This document shows, piece after piece, positions 1 to 52,216 of a stretch of 64,000 nucleotides of DNA. A program made the translations under genes and the position numbers. Origin of the DNA: Gammaproteobacteria bacterium (GTDB lineage Bacteria > Pseudomonadota > Gammaproteobacteria > CAKMZV01); NCBI GenBank assembly GCA_965277775.1, contig OZ255843.1, forward strand, positions 1,209,641 to 1,273,640, in the 5' to 3' direction. The notes below the pieces were generated by a model. It made no database searches and had not been told where the DNA came from. It was given only the letters and a program-made list of their open reading frames with translations. The stretch's first letter is position 1. The number at the start of each line of letters is the position of its first letter.

Positions 1-893
1 TGAGTTTGGACATCGCCTTAGGCATTGGGGGTTATCCCTGTGGCCGAGTCGTAGAAATTTATGGGCCAGAATCTTCGGGCAAAACCACGCTTGCGCTCCA
101 TGCGGTGGCGGAAGTGCAAAAAGCTGGCGGTGCGGCCGCATTTGTCGATGCGGAACACGCTTTAGACGTGAACTACGCAGAAAAGGTCGGCGTCAAAATC
201 GACGATTTGGTTGTTTCTCAGCCAGACACAGGCGAGCAGGCTTTAGAAATCACAGACACCTTGGTTCGTTCAGGCGGGGTTGACATTGTTGTGGTCGATT
301 CCGTGGCGGCATTAACGCCAAAAGCTGAAATTGACGGTGATATGGGTGACTCTCACATGGGGCTTCAAGCGCGTTTGATGAGCCAAGCCTTACGTAAGCT
401 TACTGGGAACATTAAAAGAACCAATACCATTGTGATTTTCATCAATCAAATACGCATGAAAATTGGGGTGATGTTTGGCAATCCTGAAACCACAACTGGC
501 GGCAATGCGCTGAAGTTTTATTCATCTGTTCGTTTAGACATTCGGCGCATTGGTGCGATCAAAAAAGGCGACGAGATGATTGGCAACGAAACGCGCGTTA
601 AGGTGGTCAAAAATAAGATGGCGCCCCCTTTCAAGCAAGTTGAAATTGAAATCATTTATGGACTGGGTGTTTCACGAATGAGCGAGTTAATCTCACTTGG
701 TGTCAATGAAGAGCTGGTTGAAAAGTCGGGCGCATGGTACAGCTACGATGGACAGCGCATTGCACAAGGTAAGGAAAAAGCCAAACAGTTTTTTGAAGAC
801 CACCCAGAGCAGGCAAAGGTGTTGGAGCAAAAATTACGCGATAAATTAATGCCCAAAACAACCAAGGATGAGACAGAACAAGCCGCAGGATAA
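1..893 (+). CDS. recA: recombinase RecA (N-terminus lies upstream of window; ORF open to position 1)
   Basis: Canonical RecA motifs: Walker [19 protein letters not shown], loop L2 [28 protein letters not shown]; first ~40 aa of RecA missing, reading frame open to window edge. Confidence 0.97.
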
Positions 894-896
894 ATT

Positions 897-1352
897 TTGG
901 ACGAGGCGGTAAAATCCATCGTTAAAAAATGCCTGATGTTACTGGCGCGGCGGGAATATTCGCAGTCAGAGTTGATTAAAAAAATGGGCGCCTTTCCCAC
1001 GGAGACTATCAACCAAGCCTTAGATGAATTAGTCAAGCGAGGGCATCAAAGCGATGAGCGATACGCAGAAGCTTTTGTTCGGTCGCAATTACATCGCGGC
1101 AAAGGGGCAAAAATCATCCATCAGGCCTTAGTCTATAAAGGGGGTATCGATAAATCCCTAGGTTGGGCGGCTTTAGAGGCCATTGATGATGGCGAATGGC
1201 AGATGCAATGTCAGCGGATTTACCAGAAGAAATTTTCGACCAAGCCCAAAAACAGAATGGATGTGTTCAAGCGCATTCAATACTTAATACAAAGAGGTTA
1301 CGACTCGGAACTGGCTCGTGAAATCGTGCAAGCGGACGATCAAGAGTCTTGA
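897..1352 (+). CDS. recX: recombination regulator RecX
   Basis: 151 aa, immediately downstream of recA (3-nt gap), helical-repeat RecX-like sequence (LLARREYSQSEL..., RGYDSELAREIV). Confidence 0.8.
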   Translation: MDEAVKSIVKKCLMLLARREYSQSELIKKMGAFPTETINQALDELVKRGHQSDERYAEAFVRSQLHRGKGAKIIHQALVYKGGIDKSLGWAALEAIDDGEWQMQCQRIYQKKFSTKPKNRMDVFKRIQYLIQRGYDSELAREIVQADDQES

Positions 1353-21617: not shown

Positions 21618-21693
21618 GGGTCGTTAGCTCAGTTGGTAGAGCACTGGACTTTTAATCCATTGGTCCCGCGTTCGAGCCGCGGACGACCCACCA
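21618..21693 (+). tRNA. tRNA-Lys (anticodon UUU)
   Basis: 76 nt cloverleaf GGGTCGT/ACGACCC acceptor, anticodon loop CTTTTAA, T-arm CCGCG-TTCGAGC-CGCGG, encoded CCA; near-identical to E. coli lysT apart from stem changes. Confidence 0.93.
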
Positions 21694-39664: not shown

Positions 39665-40114
39665 TTAGAAAATGGGTTCAACCTTAATGGCTATTTGTGT
39701 GGTCGGTTCAGTCATCACAATCTCGGCGTCTTCGTATTCGGGTGGACCAAAGGATGGACGGACGTTATTGGAAGAACCAATGGGTTCGCTAGGGATGCCA
39801 ATGAAATTCGTGTCCATTTCATCATCATTATCAACGTCATGATGCACAGAAACCGCAATCGATGGACGATCAATATTTTCAAAAGTCACTTCCATCGTCT
39901 TGCCTGTTACAGCGACTTCTTTTTTGACGAAGGCCTGCTCGTCTTCACCAGGGAAACCCTCTGCTTTGTCAAAAAGGGAGATCCGTAACTTGCCTTCAAT
40001 GGGGTCAAGATTGGTCAAAGTAATGACGAGATCTGCCGCCGTGACCTGTGATGAAATACCAAGCAACAGCGCAATACAGGCAATGCGTTTGAGGGTTTGA
40101 ATAAAAGATTTCAT
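39665..40114 (-). CDS. secreted DUF2141-like protein
   Basis: 149 aa with signal peptide; LVITLTNLDPIEGKLRISLFD beta-sandwich pattern of DUF2141; acidic C-terminus. Confidence 0.45.
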   Translation of the reverse strand: MKSFIQTLKRIACIALLLGISSQVTAADLVITLTNLDPIEGKLRISLFDKAEGFPGEDEQAFVKKEVAVTGKTMEVTFENIDRPSIAVSVHHDVDNDDEMDTNFIGIPSEPIGSSNNVRPSFGPPEYEDAEIVMTEPTTQIAIKVEPIF

Positions 40115-40257
40115 AGGCTGAATATTATAACGAGTTTGGGTGTTTCAACTTTGACAAAAACCGCAGAAATCGTTATGAATACATCTTGATTAAAAGAGAG
40201 TCTAATTGTTAGTACGATGATCGTGCAATTGAATCAGAACGGTCACAGTTATGGAAT

Positions 40258-41544
40258 CTAAATATTAACTTTTAGAGTGCTTTCGTTGTAGGATTCGGCT
40301 TGTTCTTTGATGGTGTTTTTTATCTCTTCTAATTCTCCTTCAACCCATTCGTAGTCACCGTTAAAATTTTTGTGAATGTGCTTTTCAATTGCTTTAAAGT
40401 GGGGTGTTTGCAGTTGATATTCTAATTCGTAGGCACGGTATGGGTCAGATGTTTGGTAACTGTTTAAGCGCCGCTTGACGTCCTTGGCTATACCGACCTT
40501 GTACATTCCTTCCCAGCTGCTATTGGCAATGACATAGACGAATCCCTGTCCAAATGCATCAATGCCATCCTCTGTGAGCTTTGGAACCTGAGTGCTGAAG
40601 TGCGGCTCTGGTCTGAACATATCCGCAGGAACTTCGTTGTCCAAGCGATTTTTAACGAGTTCATATGCTTTATGCGATATGTCAATGCCTACCCATTGTC
40701 GATCTAATTTTTCGGCAGCAATACAAGTGGTGGCACAGCCACAAAAAGGGTCGAGTACCACATCACCTGCGTTGCTGCTGGCTTGGATGATACGCTCTAA
40801 TAAGGCCAGTGGTTTTTGGGTAGGGTAGCCTGTACTCTCTCGGGAATTACCTTTTAATGGAGGAATATAAATCCAACTTTCTGGAAATTTGCCATTATCG
40901 TTGAGCTCAACAACACCTTCTGCAACTTTAGAAGCTTTAGCAGAATATCCCTGTCTGTTAAGGCTTGAGCTGGCGTATGGTTGACGAATGCTCTCTGGGT
41001 TAAATGTCCATGTGTTACCTTTTGAATACCAAAAAATAATGTCATGCACCCGTGATAACTGTTTTTGATTCGGGGCAGATGGTCTGCTATAACACCACAC
41101 CACTTCATTTCTAAAATTTTTCTCACCGAAAATGCAGTCCAGAACAATTTTCAGGTAATGGCTCATGGTTGGATCGCAGTGCAGATATAAGCTACCCGTA
41201 TCCTTTAACAATCGGTGGCATTCAATCAAACGTATAGCCATGTAAACCAAATAGCAATAATTGTACTTATTGCTAAAGGATTTGACGCCTTTTAAGTAAT
41301 CGTGCAGCTCTGGAGACTCAAAACGGATGCTGTCCACCCATTCGTCTTTTACATCCTCTTCTCTGAAAATATCTGAAAATTCAGCCCCTTCTGCACTAGT
41401 GCCAATAGGTGCGGAAAAGATTTTCTTTGTATTAAAAGGGGGATCAAGATAAATCAGATCAACGCAAGCACTATTGATACCCTGCAAAATTTCCAGATTA
41501 TCATGACAAAAGATGGTGCGCGGTTCTACATTGAGGTTGTTCAT
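40258..41544 (-). CDS. beta-class N6-adenine/N4-cytosine DNA methyltransferase fused to C-terminal T5orf172 (GIY-YIG-like) domain
   Basis: Motif IV DPPF (LIYLDPPFNT) near N-terminus, motif I later (VVLDPFCGCATTCIAAEKL): circular permutation of beta-class amino-MTases. C-terminal ~100 aa GFVYVIANSSWEGMYKVGIAKDVKRRLNSYQT...EWVEGELEE matches T5orf172/Mug113 GIY-YIG-like module. Confidence 0.85.
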   Translation of the reverse strand: MNNLNVEPRTIFCHDNLEILQGINSACVDLIYLDPPFNTKKIFSAPIGTSAEGAEFSDIFREEDVKDEWVDSIRFESPELHDYLKGVKSFSNKYNYCYLVYMAIRLIECHRLLKDTGSLYLHCDPTMSHYLKIVLDCIFGEKNFRNEVVWCYSRPSAPNQKQLSRVHDIIFWYSKGNTWTFNPESIRQPYASSSLNRQGYSAKASKVAEGVVELNDNGKFPESWIYIPPLKGNSRESTGYPTQKPLALLERIIQASSNAGDVVLDPFCGCATTCIAAEKLDRQWVGIDISHKAYELVKNRLDNEVPADMFRPEPHFSTQVPKLTEDGIDAFGQGFVYVIANSSWEGMYKVGIAKDVKRRLNSYQTSDPYRAYELEYQLQTPHFKAIEKHIHKNFNGDYEWVEGELEEIKNTIKEQAESYNESTLKVNI

Positions 41545-41807
41545 AGGCTTTTTTCCTATTTAGGGTCTTGCCAAATTGACTGATTTGAGACACACGAAGC
41601 AAGTGATACATTGTACCGAAGATAGGGGTATTTTGGATTTATTTCTGAAGATTGTGGGCCATGGATTAATAAGAACACACTAATACAATTTGGAATTCTG
41701 GCGAATGCAGGCACAACACTGATTAGGGCTATTTCTTAACAAAGTCGCAGTTTGAATCGCTCAGCTTGTATAATTTTATTAACACAAATCATTAACGGAG
41801 CACAGTT

Positions 41808-42242
41808 ATGGCAACAATTTTTCATCGATTAGCAATCAAAGCCAGCCCAGAGTCAACCTACAAAGCATTAACTCAAGCAGAAGGGCTGAGTCAATGGTGG
41901 GCGCGTTCAACGGGCGCTTCAGAGGTGGGTAATACCCTGTCGTTCTTTTTTGGACCGAACGGGGAATTTGAACTCAATATGGCGGTTGAGGCCTTAGAAG
42001 AGAACCAAAAAGTGGTTTGGCGTTGCACCAACGGTCCTTGGGCTGAAATGGGTCAATTTACTTTTCGCATTGAAGCGCATGAAGGCGGCACAATGCTGGC
42101 TTTTTCACACGAAGGCTGGCCAGAGCAAAACGATTTTTATGGTCACTGTAATAGCAAATGGGGCTATTTCTTAGTCACCAGTTTGAAAAACCTCTTAGAG
42201 AATGGCCAAGGGCAGCCACATCCAGCTGACCCCGATATTTAA
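41808..42242 (+). CDS. SRPBCC / AHSA1-like (activator of Hsp90 ATPase homologue) domain protein
   Basis: 144 aa; N-terminal ...SPESTYKALT...LSQWW motif typical of AHSA1/SRPBCC; stop overlaps ggt stop (convergent). Confidence 0.6.
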   Translation: MATIFHRLAIKASPESTYKALTQAEGLSQWWARSTGASEVGNTLSFFFGPNGEFELNMAVEALEENQKVVWRCTNGPWAEMGQFTFRIEAHEGGTMLAFSHEGWPEQNDFYGHCNSKWGYFLVTSLKNLLENGQGQPHPADPDI

Positions 42243-43924
42243 TTATTATTCGCTTTTCGGCGCACCCAAGAGGTGCCAATGCCTCTGGAATCACTGGCCG
42301 CTTCAACGGTGCCATCTTTGTAGTGCACAATGGCTTGCATGTTGCCCCAAGTGCGATCTTGTTGTTTGATGTTATGCCCCATGGCTTGTAAATCTTTAAT
42401 CGTTTCTTCAGAAAGGGTATTGGGCTCTAAGGCAACCATATCAGGCAAAAACTGATGGTGCAGTCGGCGACGATTGACGATTTCCACAGCCGAACCACCG
42501 TCCATGGCTGTCAACAATCCTTGCAGGACCATGGTAATGATTCGACTGCCGCCTGGGGTGCCCAGAATGACGGTTCGATCGGGTTGTTCTAATATGGTTG
42601 GGCTCATAGAAGACAACATGCGTTTTCCAGGTTTAATGGCATTGGCTGTGCCACCGACCAAGCCATAGACATTGGGCTCACCCGCTTTGGCGACGAAGTC
42701 ATCCATTTCATCATTTAATAGAATCCCCGTATTGCCCGCAACAAAGCAGCTGCCGAAAGGATAATTGACCGACAAAGTCGCGGCCACGCTGTTGCCGTGC
42801 TTGTCTGTGATGGAAAAATGGGTGGTATGATTGCCCCCTCTTGGGTCTATATTAGCGCTGAACCAAGCGCTTTTGGAGGCTTTCTCGGGGTGGATGCTGG
42901 CAACCAAACCAGCCGCATAGGTTTTGCTGATCAGCTGTTCAATGGGAATGTCAACAAAGTCGCTGTCGCCAAGATAAATGGCGCGATCGCGATAAGCACG
43001 ACGCATGGATTCAATCAGCGCATGGGTTTGTTTGACATCTTGCTTTAACGCTGGGTTTGATGAATGGGCCATCTGCTCCAATTGGTTTAAAATCTGAGCA
43101 ATGGCAATGCCTCCCGAAGAAGGCGGTGGCGCAGAAATTAAGCGGGCATTTTTGAACTTGATATCGATGGGCTCGCGCTCAATGACCTCGTAGTCGAGCA
43201 AATCTTGGTGTTGCCAAATGCCACCGTTCTGTTGCACTGCTTGAATCATGGCGTCAGCAACCGCGCCTTTATAGAATCCATCCGCCCCTTTGTCAGCCAT
43301 TTGTTTGAGCGTCTTTGCTAAATCAGGCTGTACGATTAAGTCGCCAATTTTAGGCAATTCGTTTTGGATTAAAAATGCCTTTGCGCTGTTCGGGTATTTT
43401 TGTAATACGGGCAGGCGCCATTTGGCCAGACGATGGTAAACGCCATCCACTCGAAAACCGTTCTCGGCAATGGCAATGGCAGATTGCAGGTTTTGAGCCA
43501 TGGATTGTTTGCCATAGCGGGTGGACAAATGCTCTAAGGCGGCGGGAATGCCTGGAATACCCGCCGATAAGGGACCGTCAATTGACAAGTTGGGAATCAC
43601 GTTTTTATCGGAATCAAGGTACATGTCTCGATGCGCTTTTAGTGGCGCCTTTTCACGCGCATCCAAGAATACGTAGCGGTTTTCGCTGGAAATATACAGA
43701 AGGTAAAATCCACCACCGCCCAGACCTGAGGAGTAAGGCTCTGCAACGGCCAAAGCCGCTGTTATGGCCACCGCCGCATCAAAGGCATTGCCGCCTTGAT
43801 CAAACACCTCAACGCCCGCTTGGGTGGCAAGTGGATGGGCGGTTGCTATCGCTTCGGCATAGACTTTTGGTGTCAATGCGAGCACAACGATCATCAAATA
43901 TAAACGCAGCTGTTTCTGTATCAT
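42239..43924 (-). CDS. ggt: gamma-glutamyltranspeptidase (periplasmic)
   Basis: 561 aa; signal peptide; autoprocessing/catalytic Thr in GGNHTTHFSI; GG..G..GGSRII motif. Confidence 0.92.
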   Translation of the reverse strand: MIQKQLRLYLMIVVLALTPKVYAEAIATAHPLATQAGVEVFDQGGNAFDAAVAITAALAVAEPYSSGLGGGGFYLLYISSENRYVFLDAREKAPLKAHRDMYLDSDKNVIPNLSIDGPLSAGIPGIPAALEHLSTRYGKQSMAQNLQSAIAIAENGFRVDGVYHRLAKWRLPVLQKYPNSAKAFLIQNELPKIGDLIVQPDLAKTLKQMADKGADGFYKGAVADAMIQAVQQNGGIWQHQDLLDYEVIEREPIDIKFKNARLISAPPPSSGGIAIAQILNQLEQMAHSSNPALKQDVKQTHALIESMRRAYRDRAIYLGDSDFVDIPIEQLISKTYAAGLVASIHPEKASKSAWFSANIDPRGGNHTTHFSITDKHGNSVAATLSVNYPFGSCFVAGNTGILLNDEMDDFVAKAGEPNVYGLVGGTANAIKPGKRMLSSMSPTILEQPDRTVILGTPGGSRIITMVLQGLLTAMDGGSAVEIVNRRRLHHQFLPDMVALEPNTLSEETIKDLQAMGHNIKQQDRTWGNMQAIVHYKDGTVEAASDSRGIGTSWVRRKANNN

Positions 43925-43926
43925 GG

Positions 43927-44283
43927 TTAAAATCCTTTTTGGTTTAAAAATTTTGAAAATTCGGTTTCTAATTGTTTGTAAGCGCGCAGTTGTGCTTTGC
44001 CATGTTCAGTCAAATGGGAACCGCCGCCGCCCACACCGCCTTTGGCACATTCAATCAGCGCCTTTGTTTGGTTGTGGTTGATTTGATTGACCAAATCCCA
44101 AGCGCGCTTATACGACATTTTGACGTGTTTGGCCGCCTGACTCAGCGACCCAAAAGCCTCAATGCTTTCCATCAACTCAATGCGACCCATACCAAGATAA
44201 TTACCCCCTTCTAACACCAGACTGATCTTAGCATAAATATCTTTTGAGTAAGCTTTTCCAGGAATGTGCTTGTCGTGTGGCAT
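43927..44283 (-). CDS. ModE N-terminal-domain-like winged-helix DNA-binding protein (no TOBE/Mop domain)
   Basis: LGMGRIELMESIEAFGSLSQAAKHVKMSYKRAWDLV...GGVGGGGSHLTEHG matches ModE/COG2005 HTH; start at internal Met (ORF-track 5' extension has no homology). Confidence 0.55.
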   Translation of the reverse strand: MPHDKHIPGKAYSKDIYAKISLVLEGGNYLGMGRIELMESIEAFGSLSQAAKHVKMSYKRAWDLVNQINHNQTKALIECAKGGVGGGGSHLTEHGKAQLRAYKQLETEFSKFLNQKGF

Positions 44284-44353: not shown

Positions 44354-44749
44354 TCAAACGGTGGATTGGGTTTTTTTGAGTTGGGCTTTTTCCGCCATTT
44401 GAGATAGGCGTTCGGCAATGCGCTCGCGGTTGAGTTTGATCGCTTCGTCGTCAGGGCGCCAGTTATTCCAAAGCGCTGTCCGCTCAGTTTTATAGTGCAA
44501 TAGCGTTAAGGGGTCAAAATTGGGCTTGTAGTTTCGACGGCGCATCTCCTGATAGAGTTGCTGTTGGCGTTCATAGAGGTATTCGAGCTTGTCGTAAAAG
44601 AAAATGACGTGCCCTTTGCCAAGGGTATATTTAGGGGGGATGTTTGGATGCGCACGCGCCAATTTAAAAATACGCGGGAGCTCTCTATATTCCGCCACTA
44701 AGTGTTTGTTGTGTAATTCTTCAACGGTTATGCAGTTGATTCTAGTCAT
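44354..44749 (-). CDS. denV: pyrimidine-dimer DNA glycosylase / AP lyase (T4 endonuclease V, DenV family)
   Basis: 131 aa; [26 protein letters not shown] aligns position-for-position with T4 endo V N-terminus (catalytic Thr2 and Glu23 conserved); later [17 protein letters not shown] matches GHVTFFYDKLEFLRKRQ. Confidence 0.85.
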   Translation of the reverse strand: [131 protein letters not shown]

Positions 44750-44803
44750 GCAGTCATTTCCTCCGTCAATGCAGTGACTTTGCCATCAGTATAGTAGAAG
44801 GGA

Positions 44804-45007
44804 TTAGGCACCATTTGAAGGTTTCTTGTCATTATTGTCAAATCCAGGAAAATGCGATTTTAAATTATCAATGAGAGTTTCGTGATTACTTAGAATATTT
44901 GCAGGATTAGATTCTACGGTTTTCAGCATGATTGTCATAAGTTGTTCTTTTTGGCTTTCTGTGCCAAAATCATCAATGGCTCTCACAAAACCCTCATACA
45001 TGACCAT
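44804..45007 (-). CDS. small hypothetical protein (67 aa), AT-rich
   Basis: ORF only; co-directional with flanking denV and coiled-coil/TM genes; no recognisable motif. Confidence 0.3.
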   Translation of the reverse strand: MVMYEGFVRAIDDFGTESQKEQLMTIMLKTVESNPANILSNHETLIDNLKSHFPGFDNNDKKPSNGA

Positions 45008-45031
45008 GACTCTTTGTTTATGATTGTATGT

Positions 45032-45787
45032 TTAGCGTAGCTGGCTTTTTTGTGAAATGGACCTCTGTATGTACCATATTAACCAAATTAAAGGCGATCC
45101 AGTGAGCAGATTAAAAAATACAGATTTTACAGATACCCCCTCTTCCATATAGAAAGGATATGCAAACCAAAAAAACAACCCGATTGCAATTCCAATGAAA
45201 GCGAACCACAGCAAAGGAATGTATTCAATCTCATCCTGAGCGGCCTTATAACTGGATGCCAAGCCAGCCGATGTTGCCTCTGGCAATAAACCGTTGATTC
45301 TATTAAAAAGCTCTTCACGATTCTCTTCTATATGCTTAAATGTTTTTTCTTGAGTATCCTTTAATGTTGTAAATTGTTGCTCAAATCGGTTTGAGTTGAG
45401 TTCATTTTCATTGACAATATGTTTGGACTGCGCATCGATTTGAGTGGTTAGTGTATTCACAAATTCTTCAATTTTTTGTTTTTTGCTAGTCGTTTCCCCA
45501 TCGCTCCTTCCACTCTCTTGAAAAAGTTCATCATATAAATCAGTGATTGCAAGCTGATGTGCCTTAATAGTGTCTTTTGTAGAATTGATTCCTTTTTCGC
45601 TGTCTTCAATGCTTTTTTTCAAAACATCAATTTCATTAGACCACGATGTAGAGTTGTCATAACAAGACTTAATAGTTTCAGATTTTTTTTGAATATCATC
45701 AATAAGTTGTTTAGAATCTTTAAGTGTTTGATGAGTCTGTTTTATATATTCAACGAGCTCATTTTTTTTCATTTTTTTATAATCCAT
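45032..45787 (-). CDS. hypothetical coiled-coil protein with two C-terminal transmembrane helices, AT-rich
   Basis: 251 aa; ~190 aa Lys/Glu/Gln-rich helical region then LLWFAFIGIAIGLFFWFAYPFY and LLTGSPLIWLIWYIQ hydrophobic segments; markedly lower GC than neighbours. Confidence 0.5.
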   Translation of the reverse strand: MDYKKMKKNELVEYIKQTHQTLKDSKQLIDDIQKKSETIKSCYDNSTSWSNEIDVLKKSIEDSEKGINSTKDTIKAHQLAITDLYDELFQESGRSDGETTSKKQKIEEFVNTLTTQIDAQSKHIVNENELNSNRFEQQFTTLKDTQEKTFKHIEENREELFNRINGLLPEATSAGLASSYKAAQDEIEYIPLLWFAFIGIAIGLFFWFAYPFYMEEGVSVKSVFFNLLTGSPLIWLIWYIQRSISQKSQLR

Positions 45788-45965
45788 TTGGCTCTCCTTA
45801 TCTTTGGTGAATAAATCTTACACTAAGCTGTATTTTTACATATATTGCTGTTTCGTAAACTCTACAGTTGTTCAATTTTACTGTATGTATTGGTATTATT
45901 TTATGGGTTTGATTAGTGAGTGACTATGTTGAGATGCCTTTGGCATACCAGTGTGTAGGACGCAC

Positions 45966-45996
45966 CAAAAAAAACCCCGCAAAAGCAGGGTTTTTT
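45966..45996 (-). terminator. rho-independent (bidirectional-looking) terminator downstream of ilvC
   Basis: AAAAAAAAA-CCCCGC-AAAA-GCAGGG-TTTTTT: 6-bp GC-rich stem (one G.U) with 4-nt loop flanked by A-run and T-run. Confidence 0.7.
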
Positions 45997-46011
45997 CATT
46001 ATGACAATCAT

Positions 46012-49506: not shown

Positions 49507-50475
49507 TTATGATGACTCGAGATTCAGGTGTTGCAGCAGTTGATCAAACATTTGAGACGTCGTCAACTTGTCCACTTCAATGAGAGTGGCTGTCGGGAAT
49601 TTTTTGAACCATGTGCGCTGTTTTTTGGCCAATTGATGGGTGGCGGTAATGGCCAATTCAATCGCTTGGTCACGCGTGATGGTTTGATCTAAATAATCCC
49701 ACCACTGACGGTATCCCACACTGCGGATGGCGGTATTTTCTAATGATAAGTTGGGATTTTGATACAAATTTTCGACTTCTTCATCAAAGCCAGCTTCCAG
49801 CATGTTTAAGAAGCGTTGCTTTATGATGGCTCGGTGTTTGTCGCGGTCATTCATGGTCAAGGCAATGATCTTGTCGGGTTTACTGAAGATTTTAACGGCG
49901 TCTTGCCATTGGCTCATGGGTTGCCCCGAAATTTGCCAAATGGCAATGGCCCGCATGATGCGCTGAGCATCATTGGGATGGAGGCGGTCTGCGCTGATGG
50001 GATCCACTTGCTTGAGTTGCTGATGCAATGCCTGGACGCCTTGGGTTTTTAATTGTTCATTCAATGTCAAGCGAACCGACTCAGGCGTGCTCGGCAATTC
50101 GGACAGACCATTGAGCAAAGCATTGAAGTAGAGCATGCTACCACCGACCAACAGCGTTGGCTTTTGTTGCGCTTGGTTGTCATTGATGCATTGTGTTGCT
50201 TGATTGACAAATTGCGCCACCGAGTAATGGGTTTGGGCGTCCACGCAATCGATTAAATGGTGGCGAACAAGTTGTCGTTCTGTTGCCGTGGGTTTGGCCG
50301 AACCAATGTCTAGGCCTTTATAGACCATCACCGAATCAACGCTGATGATGTCGCATTGCAAATGTTGAGCCAGTTGGATGGCCACAGATGATTTGCCTGT
50401 GGCAGTTAAGCCCATAAGGGCAATGATGGGGCTTGTTAGAGCGCCATGGTTATTTGCCACGCTTGAACCATGCAT
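49507..50475 (-). CDS. miaA: tRNA dimethylallyltransferase (start placed at internal Met; maximal ORF overlaps mutL by 100 nt)
   Basis: P-loop IALMGLTATGKSSVAI; DSVMVYKGLDIGSAKP; mutL-miaA synteny. Confidence 0.88.
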   Translation of the reverse strand: MHGSSVANNHGALTSPIIALMGLTATGKSSVAIQLAQHLQCDIISVDSVMVYKGLDIGSAKPTATERQLVRHHLIDCVDAQTHYSVAQFVNQATQCINDNQAQQKPTLLVGGSMLYFNALLNGLSELPSTPESVRLTLNEQLKTQGVQALHQQLKQVDPISADRLHPNDAQRIMRAIAIWQISGQPMSQWQDAVKIFSKPDKIIALTMNDRDKHRAIIKQRFLNMLEAGFDEEVENLYQNPNLSLENTAIRSVGYRQWWDYLDQTITRDQAIELAITATHQLAKKQRTWFKKFPTATLIEVDKLTTSQMFDQLLQHLNLESS

Positions 50476-52216
50476 CCATCTCGGCCACGGGAAAGTGTTG
50501 AATGATTGGGCGACCATGATTGCAAACTTCACCAGATTCGACGTTTTCAAGCTGGCGCAGCAGGGCGTTCATTTCGTTGAGATTCATCATCCGATTGGCA
50601 CGAACAGCACTGTGACAGGCAATGGTGGACAGCAATGCCTCTATGTTTTGGCGCATTCTATGCGAATCAGACTCTTGCAGTAGGTCACTGAGCGTGTCGT
50701 GCACCAATTGCTTAATGTCCATATTCAGTAGCAATGAAGGAATTTGGCGAATGATGGCGGCGTTGTCACTGGCGGGTTCAATGATGAATTTCAGCGCTGT
50801 GAAATGGTCGTTGTGGCTATTGAGCAGCTCGCGTTCATCCGAGCTGAGGCTCAGACTGATGGGGACTAATAGGGTTTGGGCAGACAAATTATTATTTTGG
50901 TAGGCCGCCTTGAGTTTTTCATACAATATTCTTTCATGCGCACCATGGGCATCGACCACACAAATGCCGAGTTCAGTGGTGCTGAGAATAAAAGCCCCGT
51001 GGACAAAGGCCAAGGCTTCACCCAAGGGTGCGTTCATTGAGGCCAGATCCACAGTTTGTGCGCGAGGTTCTGGTTCGTTGGCAAACGGAATGTAGGACTC
51101 TAAGCGAGATGAATTTGCGGCAGGCGAACGTGGGCTACTATGACCCGTCGGACGTTGAAAGACCAACTGCTGAGACTGTACAGGCAAATCACGGCTAACA
51201 ACAGGCGGATTGTTTTTGTTCGCTTCATCCTGTTCTTTGATGGGGCGCGATATGGTGTGGTGCACCGCTTGGCGAATGAAATCAAATGCGCCCGTTTGAC
51301 GAAAACGCACCTCATGTTTAGCGGGATGAACATTGACGTCCACCTCTGAGGCAGGCAGGTCAAAATACAACACATAAGCGGGTTGTCGATCGTGATACAT
51401 CATGTCTCTATAGGCGCGTCGTACTGCACCAGAAAGCAATTTGTCTTTGACCATGCGTTGGTTGACGTACCAATATTGCATGTCGTTTTGGGCGCGTGAG
51501 AAGACCGGTTTGGCGACAAAACCGTGGAGTGAAAAATCCCCTTGTTTGAATTTTATTTCAACGGCGGCTTCGCAGAAATCTTTGCCAAGAACTTGACGAA
51601 TACGCGCCAACTGAGAGGTGGTGTCGCTGCTTTGTTCACAACGGAATACTTGTTTGCCATTGTGCTCAACGACAAAAGCGCAATGCGGATTGGCCAAAAC
51701 CAGACGATGAATGGTGTTTAAGCAATGTCTGTATTCAGTGGACTCAGCGCGTAAGAATTTTTTGCGGGCGGGCACGTTAAAGAATAAATCGTCCAACTGC
51801 ACCTCAGTGCCTTCTGAACAAGCGATGGGTTTGATGTCTTCATTGCGCCAAATCCAGCCATGTTCATCGGCTTTGGTTTTTGAAGTGATCGACAATCGGC
51901 TCACCGCGCTGATACTCGACAATGCTTCTCCACGAAAGCCTAAGGTTTGAATGTTGAACAGATCGCTCGATTGCGTGATTTTGCTGGTGGCGTGCGCCTC
52001 AACCGCCAGTTTCAAGTCTGCTTGAGACAGCCCGATGCCATTGTCAATGACACAGATGCGACCAATGCCGCCTTTTTGCAGTTGGATTTTAATGGTATCA
52101 GCTTTGGCATCGATGGCATTTTCCACCAGTTCTTTGACGACGGAAGCGGGGCGTTCAATCACTTCGCCAGCGGCGATTTGATTGGCTAGTGCGGGGGGGA
52201 GGATTTTTATTGGCAT
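50450..52216 (-). CDS. mutL: DNA mismatch repair protein MutL
   Basis: 588 aa; GHKL ATPase N-terminus MPIKILPPALANQIAAGEVIERPASVVKELVENAIDA; C-terminal dimerisation domain. Confidence 0.93.
   Translation of the reverse strand: MPIKILPPALANQIAAGEVIERPASVVKELVENAIDAKADTIKIQLQKGGIGRICVIDNGIGLSQADLKLAVEAHATSKITQSSDLFNIQTLGFRGEALSSISAVSRLSITSKTKADEHGWIWRNEDIKPIACSEGTEVQLDDLFFNVPARKKFLRAESTEYRHCLNTIHRLVLANPHCAFVVEHNGKQVFRCEQSSDTTSQLARIRQVLGKDFCEAAVEIKFKQGDFSLHGFVAKPVFSRAQNDMQYWYVNQRMVKDKLLSGAVRRAYRDMMYHDRQPAYVLYFDLPASEVDVNVHPAKHEVRFRQTGAFDFIRQAVHHTISRPIKEQDEANKNNPPVVSRDLPVQSQQLVFQRPTGHSSPRSPAANSSRLESYIPFANEPEPRAQTVDLASMNAPLGEALAFVHGAFILSTTELGICVVDAHGAHERILYEKLKAAYQNNNLSAQTLLVPISLSLSSDERELLNSHNDHFTALKFIIEPASDNAAIIRQIPSLLLNMDIKQLVHDTLSDLLQESDSHRMRQNIEALLSTIACHSAVRANRMMNLNEMNALLRQLENVESGEVCNHGRPIIQHFPVAEMDAWFKRGK

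What the first reader, a model, noticed from the sequence alone, without database searches (positions are those of the whole stretch)
44354..44749. T4 endonuclease V (DenV)-type pyrimidine-dimer glycosylase with both catalytic residues conserved
The first 26 residues ([26 protein letters not shown]) match T4 endo V ([26 protein letters not shown]) position for position. The match includes Thr2, the N-terminal amine nucleophile after Met removal, and Glu23. A later block [17 protein letters not shown] matches GHVTFFYDKLEFLRKRQ. Cyclobutane-dimer glycosylases are sporadic in bacteria and are typically phage- or island-borne. This one sits beside two AT-rich hypothetical genes and a ModE-like regulator, between ggt and the ilvC terminator, so it looks like part of an acquired islet. 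No photolyase or uvr gene is in the window for comparison. For a marine-type organism a direct UV-dimer excision route would be physiologically meaningful.
Basis: partly seen in the sequence, partly recalled or inferred. Interest (0 to 1): 0.55.

Follow-up and report, generated by a model that had tools for sequence, protein, structure and literature searches.

The report
Chromosomal T4-type UV-dimer DNA glycosylase gene
This is an intact bacterial copy of the well-known phage T4 "endonuclease V" enzyme that cuts UV-induced pyrimidine dimers out of DNA; it is an ordinary member of a known family, and it is a stable chromosomal gene rather than part of the recently inserted AT-rich DNA next to it.

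Summary
Window 44354-44749 (minus strand) encodes a 131-aa protein. It matches Pfam Pyr_excise PF03013 (60.5 bits, cutoff 23), phrog_1183 (143.7 bits) and T4 endonuclease V in the PDB (E 3e-18, residues 1-118). Its AlphaFold model (pLDDT 95) matches only T4 endo V (TM 0.80, rmsd 1.8 A). Thr2, Glu23 and the basic DNA-contact residues are all conserved. The T4 loop 35-43 and the aromatic WYKYY tail are missing, which is usual among its close relatives.

The "acquired islet" reading is not supported. denV has background GC (about 0.46). It occupies the same site in three other conspecific assemblies, has flank-like dS, and is under purifying selection (omega 0.15-0.23). The two AT-rich ORFs are a separate strain-specific replacement (44763-45950) that ends 13 nt upstream of the denV ATG. 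A methylase insertion (40172-41696) is also strain-specific.

More distant relatives (55-69% identity) are a mix of phage and cellular copies, so an old phage-bacterium transfer is plausible but unresolved. Verdict: a new, uncharacterised member of a known kind; low interest.

The parts
44354..44749 (-). denV-type pyrimidine-dimer DNA glycosylase/AP lyase gene, 131 aa
   Evidence: ORF. PF03013 at 60.5 bits. T4 endo V in PDB, E 3e-18. phrog_1183, E 6e-42. AF2 model pLDDT 95.2 matching only T4 endo V, TM 0.80. Catalytic and DNA-contact residues conserved. Identical to public protein P0245.
44757..44764 (-). Shine-Dalgarno-like GGAGGAAA, 7-9 nt upstream of the denV ATG. Its two 5' G's already lie in the strain-specific DNA; the relatives read AAGGAAA here.
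   Evidence: Read directly from the sequence and the junction alignment.
44763..45950 (.). Strain-specific AT-rich replacement (about 1.19 kb in place of about 92 bp of ilvC-denV spacer in conspecifics). It is not part of denV but abuts it and removes the native upstream region.
   Evidence: blastn breakpoints are identical against L001 and L003. Junction alignments. GC 0.31-0.37. Absent from L097. No target-site duplication or terminal inverted repeats.
45032..45787 (-). 251-aa coiled-coil protein with two C-terminal hydrophobic segments, inside the strain-specific cassette
   Evidence: ORF. Only 24 homologs in 5.8 billion proteins. Homologs lie in defence-island contexts. Only weak coiled-coil hits in Pfam and PADLOC.
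44804..45007 (-). 67-aa ORF inside the cassette, 54 nt upstream of denV; no family match
   Evidence: ORF. No hits in Pfam, NCBIfam, PADLOC or PHROGs.
44911..44938 (-). Best sigma-70-like site upstream of denV in this strain (ATGACA-16-TAGAAT, 10/12). It lies inside the 67-aa ORF and is only a candidate.
   Evidence: Consensus scan. The number of sites in the region (10) is not above shuffled expectation (8.1 +/- 2.9), so this is weak.
43927..44283 (-). ModE-N-terminal-like winged-HTH gene, 118 aa from the internal ATG. It lies 70 nt downstream of denV on the same strand and 2 nt upstream of ggt.
   Evidence: TIGR00637 ModE_repress E 3.6e-23, but 81.5 bits is below the 98.5 cutoff. Called as 118 aa in L001 and L097. 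omega 0.04-0.07.
42239..43924 (-). gamma-glutamyltranspeptidase (ggt), co-oriented and possibly co-transcribed with denV and the HTH gene
   Evidence: PF01019 in the orthologous loci. No terminator-like site between denV and ggt.
45969..45996 (-). Intrinsic terminator of ilvC (13-bp stem plus U8), conserved in conspecifics; it marks the right-hand limit of the replaced spacer
   Evidence: Inverted repeat I10. RNA fold -20.1 kcal/mol, z -4.57. Conserved in L001 and L003.

Best explanation
The gene encodes a chromosomal member of the T4 endonuclease V / pyrimidine-dimer glycosylase family (Pfam Pyr_excise). It most likely starts base-excision repair of cis-syn cyclobutane pyrimidine dimers in the same way as T4-PDG. 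(1) The initiator Met is removed, exposing the alpha-amino group of Thr2. (2) The enzyme binds kinked duplex DNA through the conserved basic residues R3, R22, R26, R110 and R114. (3) The Thr2 amine attacks C1' of the 5' pyrimidine of the dimer, breaking the glycosyl bond and forming an imine (Schiff base). Glu23 acts as the general acid/base. (4) Beta-elimination nicks the backbone 3' of the abasic site. (5) Host AP endonuclease, DNA polymerase I and ligase finish the repair.

Shown here: family membership, fold, conservation of every catalytic and DNA-contact residue tested, an intact ORF under purifying selection, and stable chromosomal residence at one site in this species. Inferred only: the enzymatic activity, Met removal, the downstream repair steps, and co-transcription with the ModE-like gene and ggt.

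The gene is a fixed part of this species' chromosome, in an uncultured gammaproteobacterium with a genome of about 2.06 Mb. It is not cargo of the adjacent AT-rich insertion. Its deeper ancestry lies in a clade shared by phages and bacteria, so an old transfer is likely, but its direction is unresolved.
For: Family: PF03013 at 60.5 bits against cutoff 23; phrog_1183 at 143.7 bits over residues 1-124; T4 endo V chains in the PDB at E 3e-18 to 4e-17 over residues 1-118.

Fold: AF2 pLDDT 95.2, pTM 0.86, all-alpha. Foldseek against the PDB returns only the four T4 endo V entries at E <= 0.001, best TM 0.80 and rmsd 1.8 A; the next hit has E 0.9.

Residues: T2, R3, H16, Y21, R22, E23, R26, H47 (T4 H56), Q62 (Q71), R110 (R117) and R114 (K121) are conserved. 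R3, H16, Y21, R22, E23, R26, H47 and R110 are invariant, and T2 and R114 at least 90% conserved, in 76 homologs.

N-terminus: no upstream in-frame start is possible. By my count of the table, about 128 of the 150 best family representatives align residue 1 to residue 1, which fits an N-terminal nucleophile.

Mechanism sources: the N-terminal Thr alpha-amine forms the imine and the active-site Glu (Glu22 in mature numbering) transfers the proton (PMC3285167). PDGs cleave the glycosyl bond of the 5' pyrimidine and then incise by a lyase step, and expression rescues NER-deficient E. coli (bioRxiv 10.1101/185058).

Functional constraint: omega 0.15-0.23 in three pairwise comparisons. None of 15 intraspecific variable sites falls on a family-invariant column.

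Chromosomal residence: same site and order in L001, L003 and L097; background GC; dS like the flanks.
Against: No member of the immediate clade (short non-aromatic tail, no 35-43 loop) was found to be biochemically characterised in the literature I could search. The T4 C-terminal aromatic segment WYKYY is absent. From my own recollection of T4 mutagenesis work, not from a source retrieved here, that segment contributes to dimer-specific binding. denV's omega is 3-5 times that of neighbouring housekeeping genes, so constraint is weaker. The nearly invariant Pro8 of the family is Thr in the window and Ala in the conspecifics, although T4 has Leu there. No promoter could be assigned with confidence. 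No NCBIfam model matched.
Confidence: 0.83

Rival explanations
1. One reading: denV is cargo of one recently acquired islet comprising the two AT-rich hypothetical genes, denV and the ModE-like regulator, inserted between ggt and the ilvC terminator.
For: The DNA directly upstream of denV is AT-rich (GC 0.31-0.37) and really is strain-specific. The family is common in phages. In another bacterium the closest outgroup copy lies between Fic and Mrr genes. Two sister lineages (IlvC 81-82%) have different genes after ilvC.
Against: denV, the ModE-like gene and ggt lie inside a block that is collinear and about 96% identical in three other conspecific assemblies. Only 44763-45950 is missing there. 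denV's GC equals the background. Its dS matches the flanks. No tRNA, integrase, target-site duplication or terminal repeats flank it. In the sister lineages the whole downstream region, including alaS, is rearranged, so they say nothing about denV specifically.
Confidence: 0.04
2. The protein is a true family member but has a shifted substrate range or reduced activity. For example, it might act mainly as an AP lyase, or on formamidopyrimidine or other UV/oxidative lesions. The reason would be that its clade lacks the T4 aromatic C-terminal segment and the 35-43 loop.
For: WYKYY and the loop VANGKRVRD are absent. Among 203 close relatives, 169 have no aromatic residue after the last conserved motif. 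The characterised Chlorella virus enzyme already shows a broader range, including FapyAde and FapyGua. I found no characterised short-tail member.
Against: All catalytic and phosphate-contact residues are conserved. The predicted core superposes on T4 endo V at 1.8 A. The short-tail form is carried by many phages annotated as endonuclease V, where UV-dimer repair is the accepted role.
Confidence: 0.1
3. The gene is a decaying, non-functional remnant of an old phage-derived insertion.
For: omega is higher than in the neighbours. The native upstream spacer has been replaced in this strain. No confident promoter was found.
Against: The ORF is intact at 131 aa in all four conspecific assemblies. 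omega is well below 1. Variable sites avoid conserved columns. The RBS is retained.
Confidence: 0.03

Closest known systems
Bacteriophage T4 endonuclease V (DenV, T4-PDG; PDB 2END, 1ENI, 1ENJ, 1ENK, 1VAS, 2FCC)
   Same: Same Pfam family and same all-alpha fold (TM 0.80, rmsd 1.8 A). It keeps the N-terminal Thr2, Glu23, R3, R22, R26, H16, Y21, H56, Q71, R117 and K121 (as Arg). Size is similar (131 vs 138 aa).
   Different: Only 37% identical. It lacks the nine-residue loop 35-43 and the C-terminal aromatic WYKYY segment, and instead ends in a long helix with a basic, non-aromatic tail. It is encoded on a bacterial chromosome, not a phage.
Short-form phage 'endonuclease V N-glycosylase UV repair enzyme' (phrog_1183), e.g. 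Roseobacter phage RDJL Phi 1, Agrobacterium phage OLIVR5, and uncultured IMG/VR phages
   Same: Best profile match (143.7 bits). These proteins are 51-57% identical, of similar length (about 115-125 aa), and have the same short tail.
   Different: They are phage-borne, among replication and nucleotide-metabolism genes. The window copy sits among chromosomal housekeeping genes and is fixed in its species.
Chromosomal bacterial DenV homologs (reported in Brucella, Prochlorococcus, Bordetella, Haemophilus, Pasteurella; ocean-metagenome expansion noted in 2007)
   Same: The same situation: a phage-type PDG gene in a bacterial genome (bioRxiv 10.1101/185058; PMC1821046). Bordetella and Burkholderiaceae copies are 55% identical to the window protein.
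   Different: A different lineage, an unnamed gammaproteobacterial MAG species. The nearest non-conspecific relative is only 69% identical.
[quoted passage not shown]
   Same: A characterised family member with the same chemistry, and it rescues NER-deficient E. coli.
   Different: It is a eukaryotic-virus enzyme with a documented broader substrate range (Fapy lesions).
Not related despite similar names or roles: E. coli endonuclease V (Nfi), Micrococcus luteus UV endonuclease (Nth superfamily), UVDE
   Same: They share a name or a UV-damage role.
   Different: No sequence or fold match to any of these was returned. PMC1821046 treats UVDE and the UV dimer glycosylases (citing the M. luteus enzyme) as separate from DenV. 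That Nfi is a different protein family is my own knowledge.

Membership tests
Pyr_excise / T4 endonuclease V (T4-PDG) family | Sequence match to the curated family profile above its threshold, over most of the domain | tested here: met
   PF03013 at 60.5 bits against gathering cutoff 23, profile positions 1-76 of 81. phrog_1183 at 143.7 bits, positions 1-135 of 139.
Pyr_excise / T4 endonuclease V (T4-PDG) family | The single-domain all-alpha endo V fold | tested here: met
   The AF2 model (pLDDT 95.2) matches only T4 endo V entries in the PDB: TM 0.76-0.80, rmsd 1.8-2.7 A, probability 1.00. The next hit has E 0.9. This is a predicted structure, not an experimental one.
Pyr_excise / T4 endonuclease V (T4-PDG) family | N-terminal Thr directly after the initiator Met (alpha-amine nucleophile), with no N-terminal extension | tested here: met
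   The protein begins MTR and no in-frame start lies upstream. T2 is at least 90% conserved in 76 homologs. About 128 of 150 representatives align residue 1 to residue 1. Met removal itself was not testable.
Pyr_excise / T4 endonuclease V (T4-PDG) family | Catalytic glutamate (T4 Glu23; Glu22 in mature numbering) | tested here: met
   E23 aligns to T4 E23 and is invariant in 76 of 76 sequences. Its role is taken from PMC3285167.
Pyr_excise / T4 endonuclease V (T4-PDG) family | Basic DNA-backbone contacts (T4 R3, R22, R26, R117, K121) | tested here: met
   R3, R22, R26, R110 and R114 align to these. R3, R22, R26 and R110 are invariant and R114 is at least 90% conserved. Which T4 residues contact the DNA is from my own knowledge of the 1VAS complex.
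Pyr_excise / T4 endonuclease V (T4-PDG) family | C-terminal aromatic segment (T4 W128-Y132). This is a feature of T4 and close relatives and does not define the family. | tested here: not met
   The window has KAQLK at the aligned positions. 169 of 203 relatives also have no aromatic residue in the tail, so this separates a sub-type rather than excluding membership.
Pyr_excise / T4 endonuclease V (T4-PDG) family | CPD-specific N-glycosylase plus AP-lyase activity with a borohydride-trappable imine | not testable with these tools
   This needs purified protein and UV-damaged or defined CPD substrates.
   denV has GC 0.46-0.47, equal to the surrounding core genes. Only 44800-46000 is 0.31-0.37.
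   denV is present at the same site in all four conspecific assemblies. The adjacent 44763-45950 segment does meet this criterion.
   The nearest tRNAs are at 21618 and 58438. There is no integrase or transposase among the neighbours. There are no convincing flanking repeats.
ModE (molybdate-responsive regulator), for the neighbouring gene | Score above the curated cutoff, plus the C-terminal molybdate-binding (Mop) domains | tested here: not met
   TIGR00637 at 81.5 bits is below cutoff 98.5, and the PRK10676 equivalog at 66.8 bits is below 369. The protein has only 118 aa, covers the N-terminal HTH region only, and has no Pfam hit. 'ModE-like HTH' is fair; 'ModE' is not.

The most novel reading that the evidence does not exclude
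The short-tail DenV sub-type lacks the T4 aromatic C-terminus and the 35-43 loop, is shared by many uncultured phages and scattered bacteria, and has no biochemically characterised member that I could find. It might recognise lesions differently from T4-PDG, for example with a broader or shifted substrate range. In this small-genome bacterium it might then serve as a constitutive chromosomal repair function rather than a phage accessory.
Probability: 0.1. Interest if true: 0.35.

Novelty: new member of a known kind. Interest (0 to 1): 0.12.

Why it matters
It matters little beyond correct annotation. It adds one more uncultured gammaproteobacterial lineage that keeps a phage-type, light-independent, ATP-independent route for removing cyclobutane dimers. 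For a 2-Mb genome this could be a cheap supplement to nucleotide excision repair. That idea cannot be judged from a 64-kb window, because the genome's uvr and photolyase content is unknown. The practical lesson concerns method. The apparent islet is two separate things: a resident denV gene, and a young AT-rich insertion abutting it. Only comparison with conspecific genomes separated them.

Tried and rejected
1. NCBIfam gave no hit for DenV at E <= 0.01, and PADLOC gave none. Neither argues against membership, given Pfam, PHROGs and the PDB.

2. The exact-sequence contig look-up of the window protein failed, as did the look-up of IlvC P0121. Cluster membership later showed that P0245 from the 2,064,107-bp chromosome is identical to the window protein. 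So the failure reflects a gap in the index, not novelty.

3. Sister lineages (IlvC 81-82%) were examined to date the acquisition. ilvC is followed by nrdAB or thrS-infC there, and the whole denV-to-alaS block is elsewhere or absent. This is uninformative for denV, and I could not search those whole genomes.

4. Phage-versus-bacterial origin was tested with an NJ tree of 212 sequences over 118 columns. The conspecific clade has 100% support. Its sister is the cellular L002 copy in only 42% of 200 bootstraps, an unlabelled metagenome protein in about 28%, and viral contigs in about 8%. I therefore do not claim a donor.

5. Promoter scans gave candidate sites in numbers not above shuffled expectation, in both the window and the L003 spacer. 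No promoter is asserted. The terminator scanner missed the ilvC hairpin, which I confirmed by folding.

6. A search for target-site duplications or terminal inverted repeats at both strain-specific insertions found only short matches of chance size.

7. A literature search for the WYKYY segment found nothing in the held library. Statements about its role rest on my own memory and are marked as such.

8. The pseudogene idea was rejected (omega 0.15-0.23, intact in four assemblies).

9. The small partner ORFs of the cassette and of its L098 homolog show no similarity, so a conserved two-gene module is not established.
Full report
**1. What is in the sequence**

The ORF list shows an ATG-initiated reading frame at 44354-44749 on the minus strand. 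The lister starts each ORF at the first start codon after a stop, so no in-frame upstream start exists and the protein must begin Met-Thr-Arg. A Shine-Dalgarno-like GGAGGAAA lies 7-9 nt upstream of the ATG.

**2. Is the resemblance to T4 endonuclease V real?**

Yes, and it covers the whole domain.
- Pfam Pyr_excise (PF03013) scores 60.5 bits against a gathering cutoff of 23 (E 2e-16).
- phrog_1183, "endonuclease V N-glycosylase UV repair enzyme", scores 143.7 bits over residues 1-124.
- phmmer against all PDB chains returns the six T4 endonuclease V sequences at E 3e-18 to 4e-17, aligned over query 1-118 and target 1-125.
- A pairwise alignment gives 37% identity (48 of 129 positions), with 19/26 identical in the N-terminal block and 13/17 in the GHV...RQ block.
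- An AlphaFold2 model built on a 76-sequence alignment is confident (mean pLDDT 95.2, pTM 0.86) and all-alpha.
- Foldseek against the PDB finds only T4 endonuclease V entries at E <= 0.001 (best TM 0.80, rmsd 1.8 A over 124 columns). The next hit has E 0.9.

**3. Catalytic anatomy**

The following T4 residues map onto identical or conservative residues: T2, R3, H16, Y21, R22, E23, R26, H56 (window H47), Q71 (Q62), R117 (R110) and K121 (R114). Across 76 homologs, R3, H16, Y21, R22, E23, R26, H47 and R110 are invariant, and T2 and R114 are at least 90% conserved. By my count of the table, about 128 of the 150 best representatives from an exhaustive search of 1.84 billion cluster representatives align their residue 1 to the query's residue 1. 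That is what a free N-terminal nucleophile requires.

The mechanism is taken from the literature. The N-terminal threonine alpha-amine forms the imine with C1', and the active-site glutamate (Glu22 in mature numbering) transfers the proton (PMC3285167). These enzymes cleave the glycosyl bond of the 5' pyrimidine of the dimer, then incise by a lyase step, and their expression partly rescues NER-deficient E. coli (bioRxiv 10.1101/185058).

There are two differences from T4. The nine-residue loop VANGKRVRD (T4 35-43) is missing. The aromatic C-terminal WYKYY segment is replaced by a basic, non-aromatic tail ([17 protein letters not shown]) that the model places at the end of one long helix. This is the norm in its clade. 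Among 203 relatives carrying the last conserved motif, the median tail is 7 residues and 169 have no aromatic residue in it. I found no paper in the held library on the role of WYKYY. My recollection that it contributes to dimer-specific binding in T4 was not checked here.

**4. Is denV part of an acquired islet?**

*Composition.* Sliding-window GC is 0.46-0.47 across denV, the same as ggt, ilvC and the rest of the region. Only 44800-46000, which holds the two hypothetical ORFs, drops to 0.31-0.37.

*Conspecific genomes.* The closest DenV proteins (91-94% identical) come from an ENA metagenome contig (L001) and from two complete MAG chromosomes: OZ255827.1, "Gammaproteobacteria bacterium", 2.11 Mb (L003), and a 2.08-Mb chromosome (L097). 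blastn shows the window is collinear with L001 and L003 at about 96% identity, apart from two window-specific segments with identical breakpoints in both comparisons: 40172-41696 and 44763-45950. In all three relatives the order is ilvH, ilvC, a 167-bp gap, denV, a 118-aa gene, ggt, AHSA1, DUF2141, alaS.

*Junctions.* Identity runs through the denV ATG and the first six bases of its RBS, then breaks. It resumes at the ilvC terminator hairpin. About 92 bp of native spacer is thus replaced by about 1.19 kb of AT-rich DNA. There is no target-site duplication and there are no terminal inverted repeats.

*The window's own genome.* The window DenV is identical to P0245. The 251-aa cassette protein is identical to P0247, and IlvC is 100% identical to P0121. 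All three are on a 2,064,107-bp chromosome, which is evidently the window's source. So four of four conspecific assemblies carry denV at this site, and only one carries the cassette.

*Evolutionary rates.* For denV, dS is 0.16-0.19 against the three relatives, within or slightly above the range of the flanking genes (0.08-0.18). Its omega is 0.15-0.23. The gene has therefore co-diverged with its flanks under purifying selection. Constraint is 3-5 times weaker than on ilvC, ilvH, alaS, AHSA1 or the HTH gene (omega 0.02-0.08). None of the 15 positions that vary within the species falls on a family-invariant column.

*Conclusion.* denV, the ModE-like gene and ggt are resident genes of this species. 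The AT-rich ORFs are a later, independent event.

**5. Deeper origin**

Beyond the species there is a gap: the next relatives are 69% identical. One of them (P0003, locus L002) is on a 1.18-Mb bacterial contig, between Fic-domain and Mrr restriction genes. Relatives at 56-63% that I sampled (P0007, P0014, P0022) are on contigs with phage-like gene sets: family A DNA polymerase, Toprim-DnaB primase-helicase, DNA ligase, lysozyme, a T4 Y00F-family gene, and many small co-oriented ORFs.

Homologs occur in 1,101 of 50,697 GenBank phage records (best 55%, Roseobacter phage RDJL Phi 1) and in at least 390 IMG/VR contigs (best 57%). The whole family comprises 1,397 clusters at 50% identity (629 at E <= 1e-10) among 1.84 billion, so it is small and sporadic.

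An NJ tree puts the cellular L002 copy as sister to the species clade, followed by a mixed phage and metagenome clade. Bootstrap support for that sister relationship is only 42%.

In the two sister lineages identified through IlvC (81-82% identity), the DNA downstream of ilvC encodes unrelated genes. They cannot date the acquisition. An old exchange with phages is therefore likely for the family, but neither the donor nor the timing is resolved for this copy.

**6. Neighbourhood and expression**

The window is core chromosome. It carries recA-recX, rnhB, the lpx/fabZ/skp/bamA cluster, rseP, cdsA, uppS, frr, pyrH, tsf, rpsB, clpP, tig, hemE, comM, miaB, lnt, alaS, ilvIHC, miaA, mutL, amiC, tsaE, aroE, hemB, ilvD, lptD and others.

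The ModE-like gene is best read from its internal ATG (43927-44283, 118 aa, as called in the relatives). It matches the ModE N-terminal HTH domain at E 3.6e-23 but scores below the curated cutoff, and it has no molybdate-binding domains. It lies 70 nt downstream of denV and 2 nt upstream of ggt, with no terminator-like site between them. Co-transcription is possible but not shown.

The ilvC terminator at 45969-45996 is a strong hairpin followed by U8 (-20.1 kcal/mol, z -4.6). Read-through from ilvC is therefore unlikely. In this strain, denV must be transcribed from within the cassette or together with it. The best candidate site (44938 to 44911, 10/12 matches) is not statistically distinguishable from background.

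**7. Comparison with what is known, and verdict**

Bacterial chromosomal homologs of T4-PDG have long been noted, in Brucella, Prochlorococcus, Bordetella, Haemophilus and Pasteurella. Their expansion in ocean metagenomes was reported in 2007 (PMC1821046). The protein itself is already in public collections with a PF03013 tag.

The finding is thus a correct identification of an ordinary, uncharacterised member of a known family. It passes every membership feature I could test, except the T4-specific aromatic tail, which most of its clade also lacks. The ecological remark about a marine organism could not be checked.

Scores: interest 0.12; novelty "new member of a known kind". The most novel reading still open is that the short-tail sub-type differs from T4-PDG in substrate range (probability about 0.1).

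Noticed in passing
window 44763-45950 (ORFs 45032-45787 and 44804-45007, minus strand): This is a strain-specific AT-rich cassette (GC 0.31-0.37) that replaces about 92 bp of the ilvC-denV spacer. It is absent from three conspecific assemblies. The 251-aa coiled-coil protein with two C-terminal hydrophobic segments has only 24 homologs in 5.8 billion proteins. One homolog lies inside a Type I R-M operon next to a CBASS SMODS/SAVED pair. Another is flanked by Fic/RhuM, an IS1595 transposase and a Thoeris ThsB-TIR gene. It is a candidate uncharacterised defence-island gene. PADLOC gives only coiled-coil noise.
   Followed up: partly
window 40172-41696 (ORF 40258-41544, minus strand): This is a second strain-specific insertion, between DUF2141 and AHSA1, absent from L001, L003 and L097. 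It encodes a 428-aa fusion of an N6/N4 DNA methyltransferase (PF01555, 165.6 bits) with a C-terminal T5orf172 (GIY-YIG-like) domain. No cognate restriction gene lies next to it and there are no flanking repeats.
   Followed up: partly
window 43927-44283 and 42239-43924 (minus strand): A 118-aa ModE-N-terminal-like HTH gene ends 2 nt before the ggt start codon. The pair is conserved in all conspecifics and the HTH gene is strongly constrained (omega 0.04-0.07). This tight coupling of an HTH-only ModE-like protein to gamma-glutamyltranspeptidase is unexplained. The longer 163-aa TTG-initiated ORF that overlaps denV is probably not the real start.
   Followed up: partly
window 44354-44749 compared with flanking genes: denV evolves 3-5 times faster at non-synonymous sites than its neighbours within the species (omega 0.15-0.23 against 0.02-0.08). 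The family's nearly invariant Pro8 is Thr in the window and Ala in the conspecifics.
   Followed up: yes
window 42239-43924 (ggt): ggt differs from the conspecific copies by an indel: 561 aa here against 559 aa in L001 and L097. Its 3' end overlaps the convergent AHSA1 gene (41808-42242) by 4 nt.
   Followed up: no
L002 10001-10420 (1.18-Mb bacterial contig): The closest non-conspecific DenV with known context (69% identity) lies between two Fic-domain genes and directly upstream of an Mrr-type restriction endonuclease gene. In that bacterium the gene does look island-borne.
   Followed up: partly
window 6-1352 and 50450-52216: Other DNA-repair genes are present in the window: recA-recX at the left edge (recA is truncated by the window start) and mutL downstream of the ilv operon. 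No uvr gene or photolyase is present.
   Followed up: no
window 40110-40119 and 41540-41549: An identical 10-nt string, TTCATAGGCT (AGCCTATGAA on the coding strand, spanning the ATG), occurs at the start codons of both DUF2141 and the inserted methylase. It does not coincide with the insertion breakpoints and may be chance.
   Followed up: no
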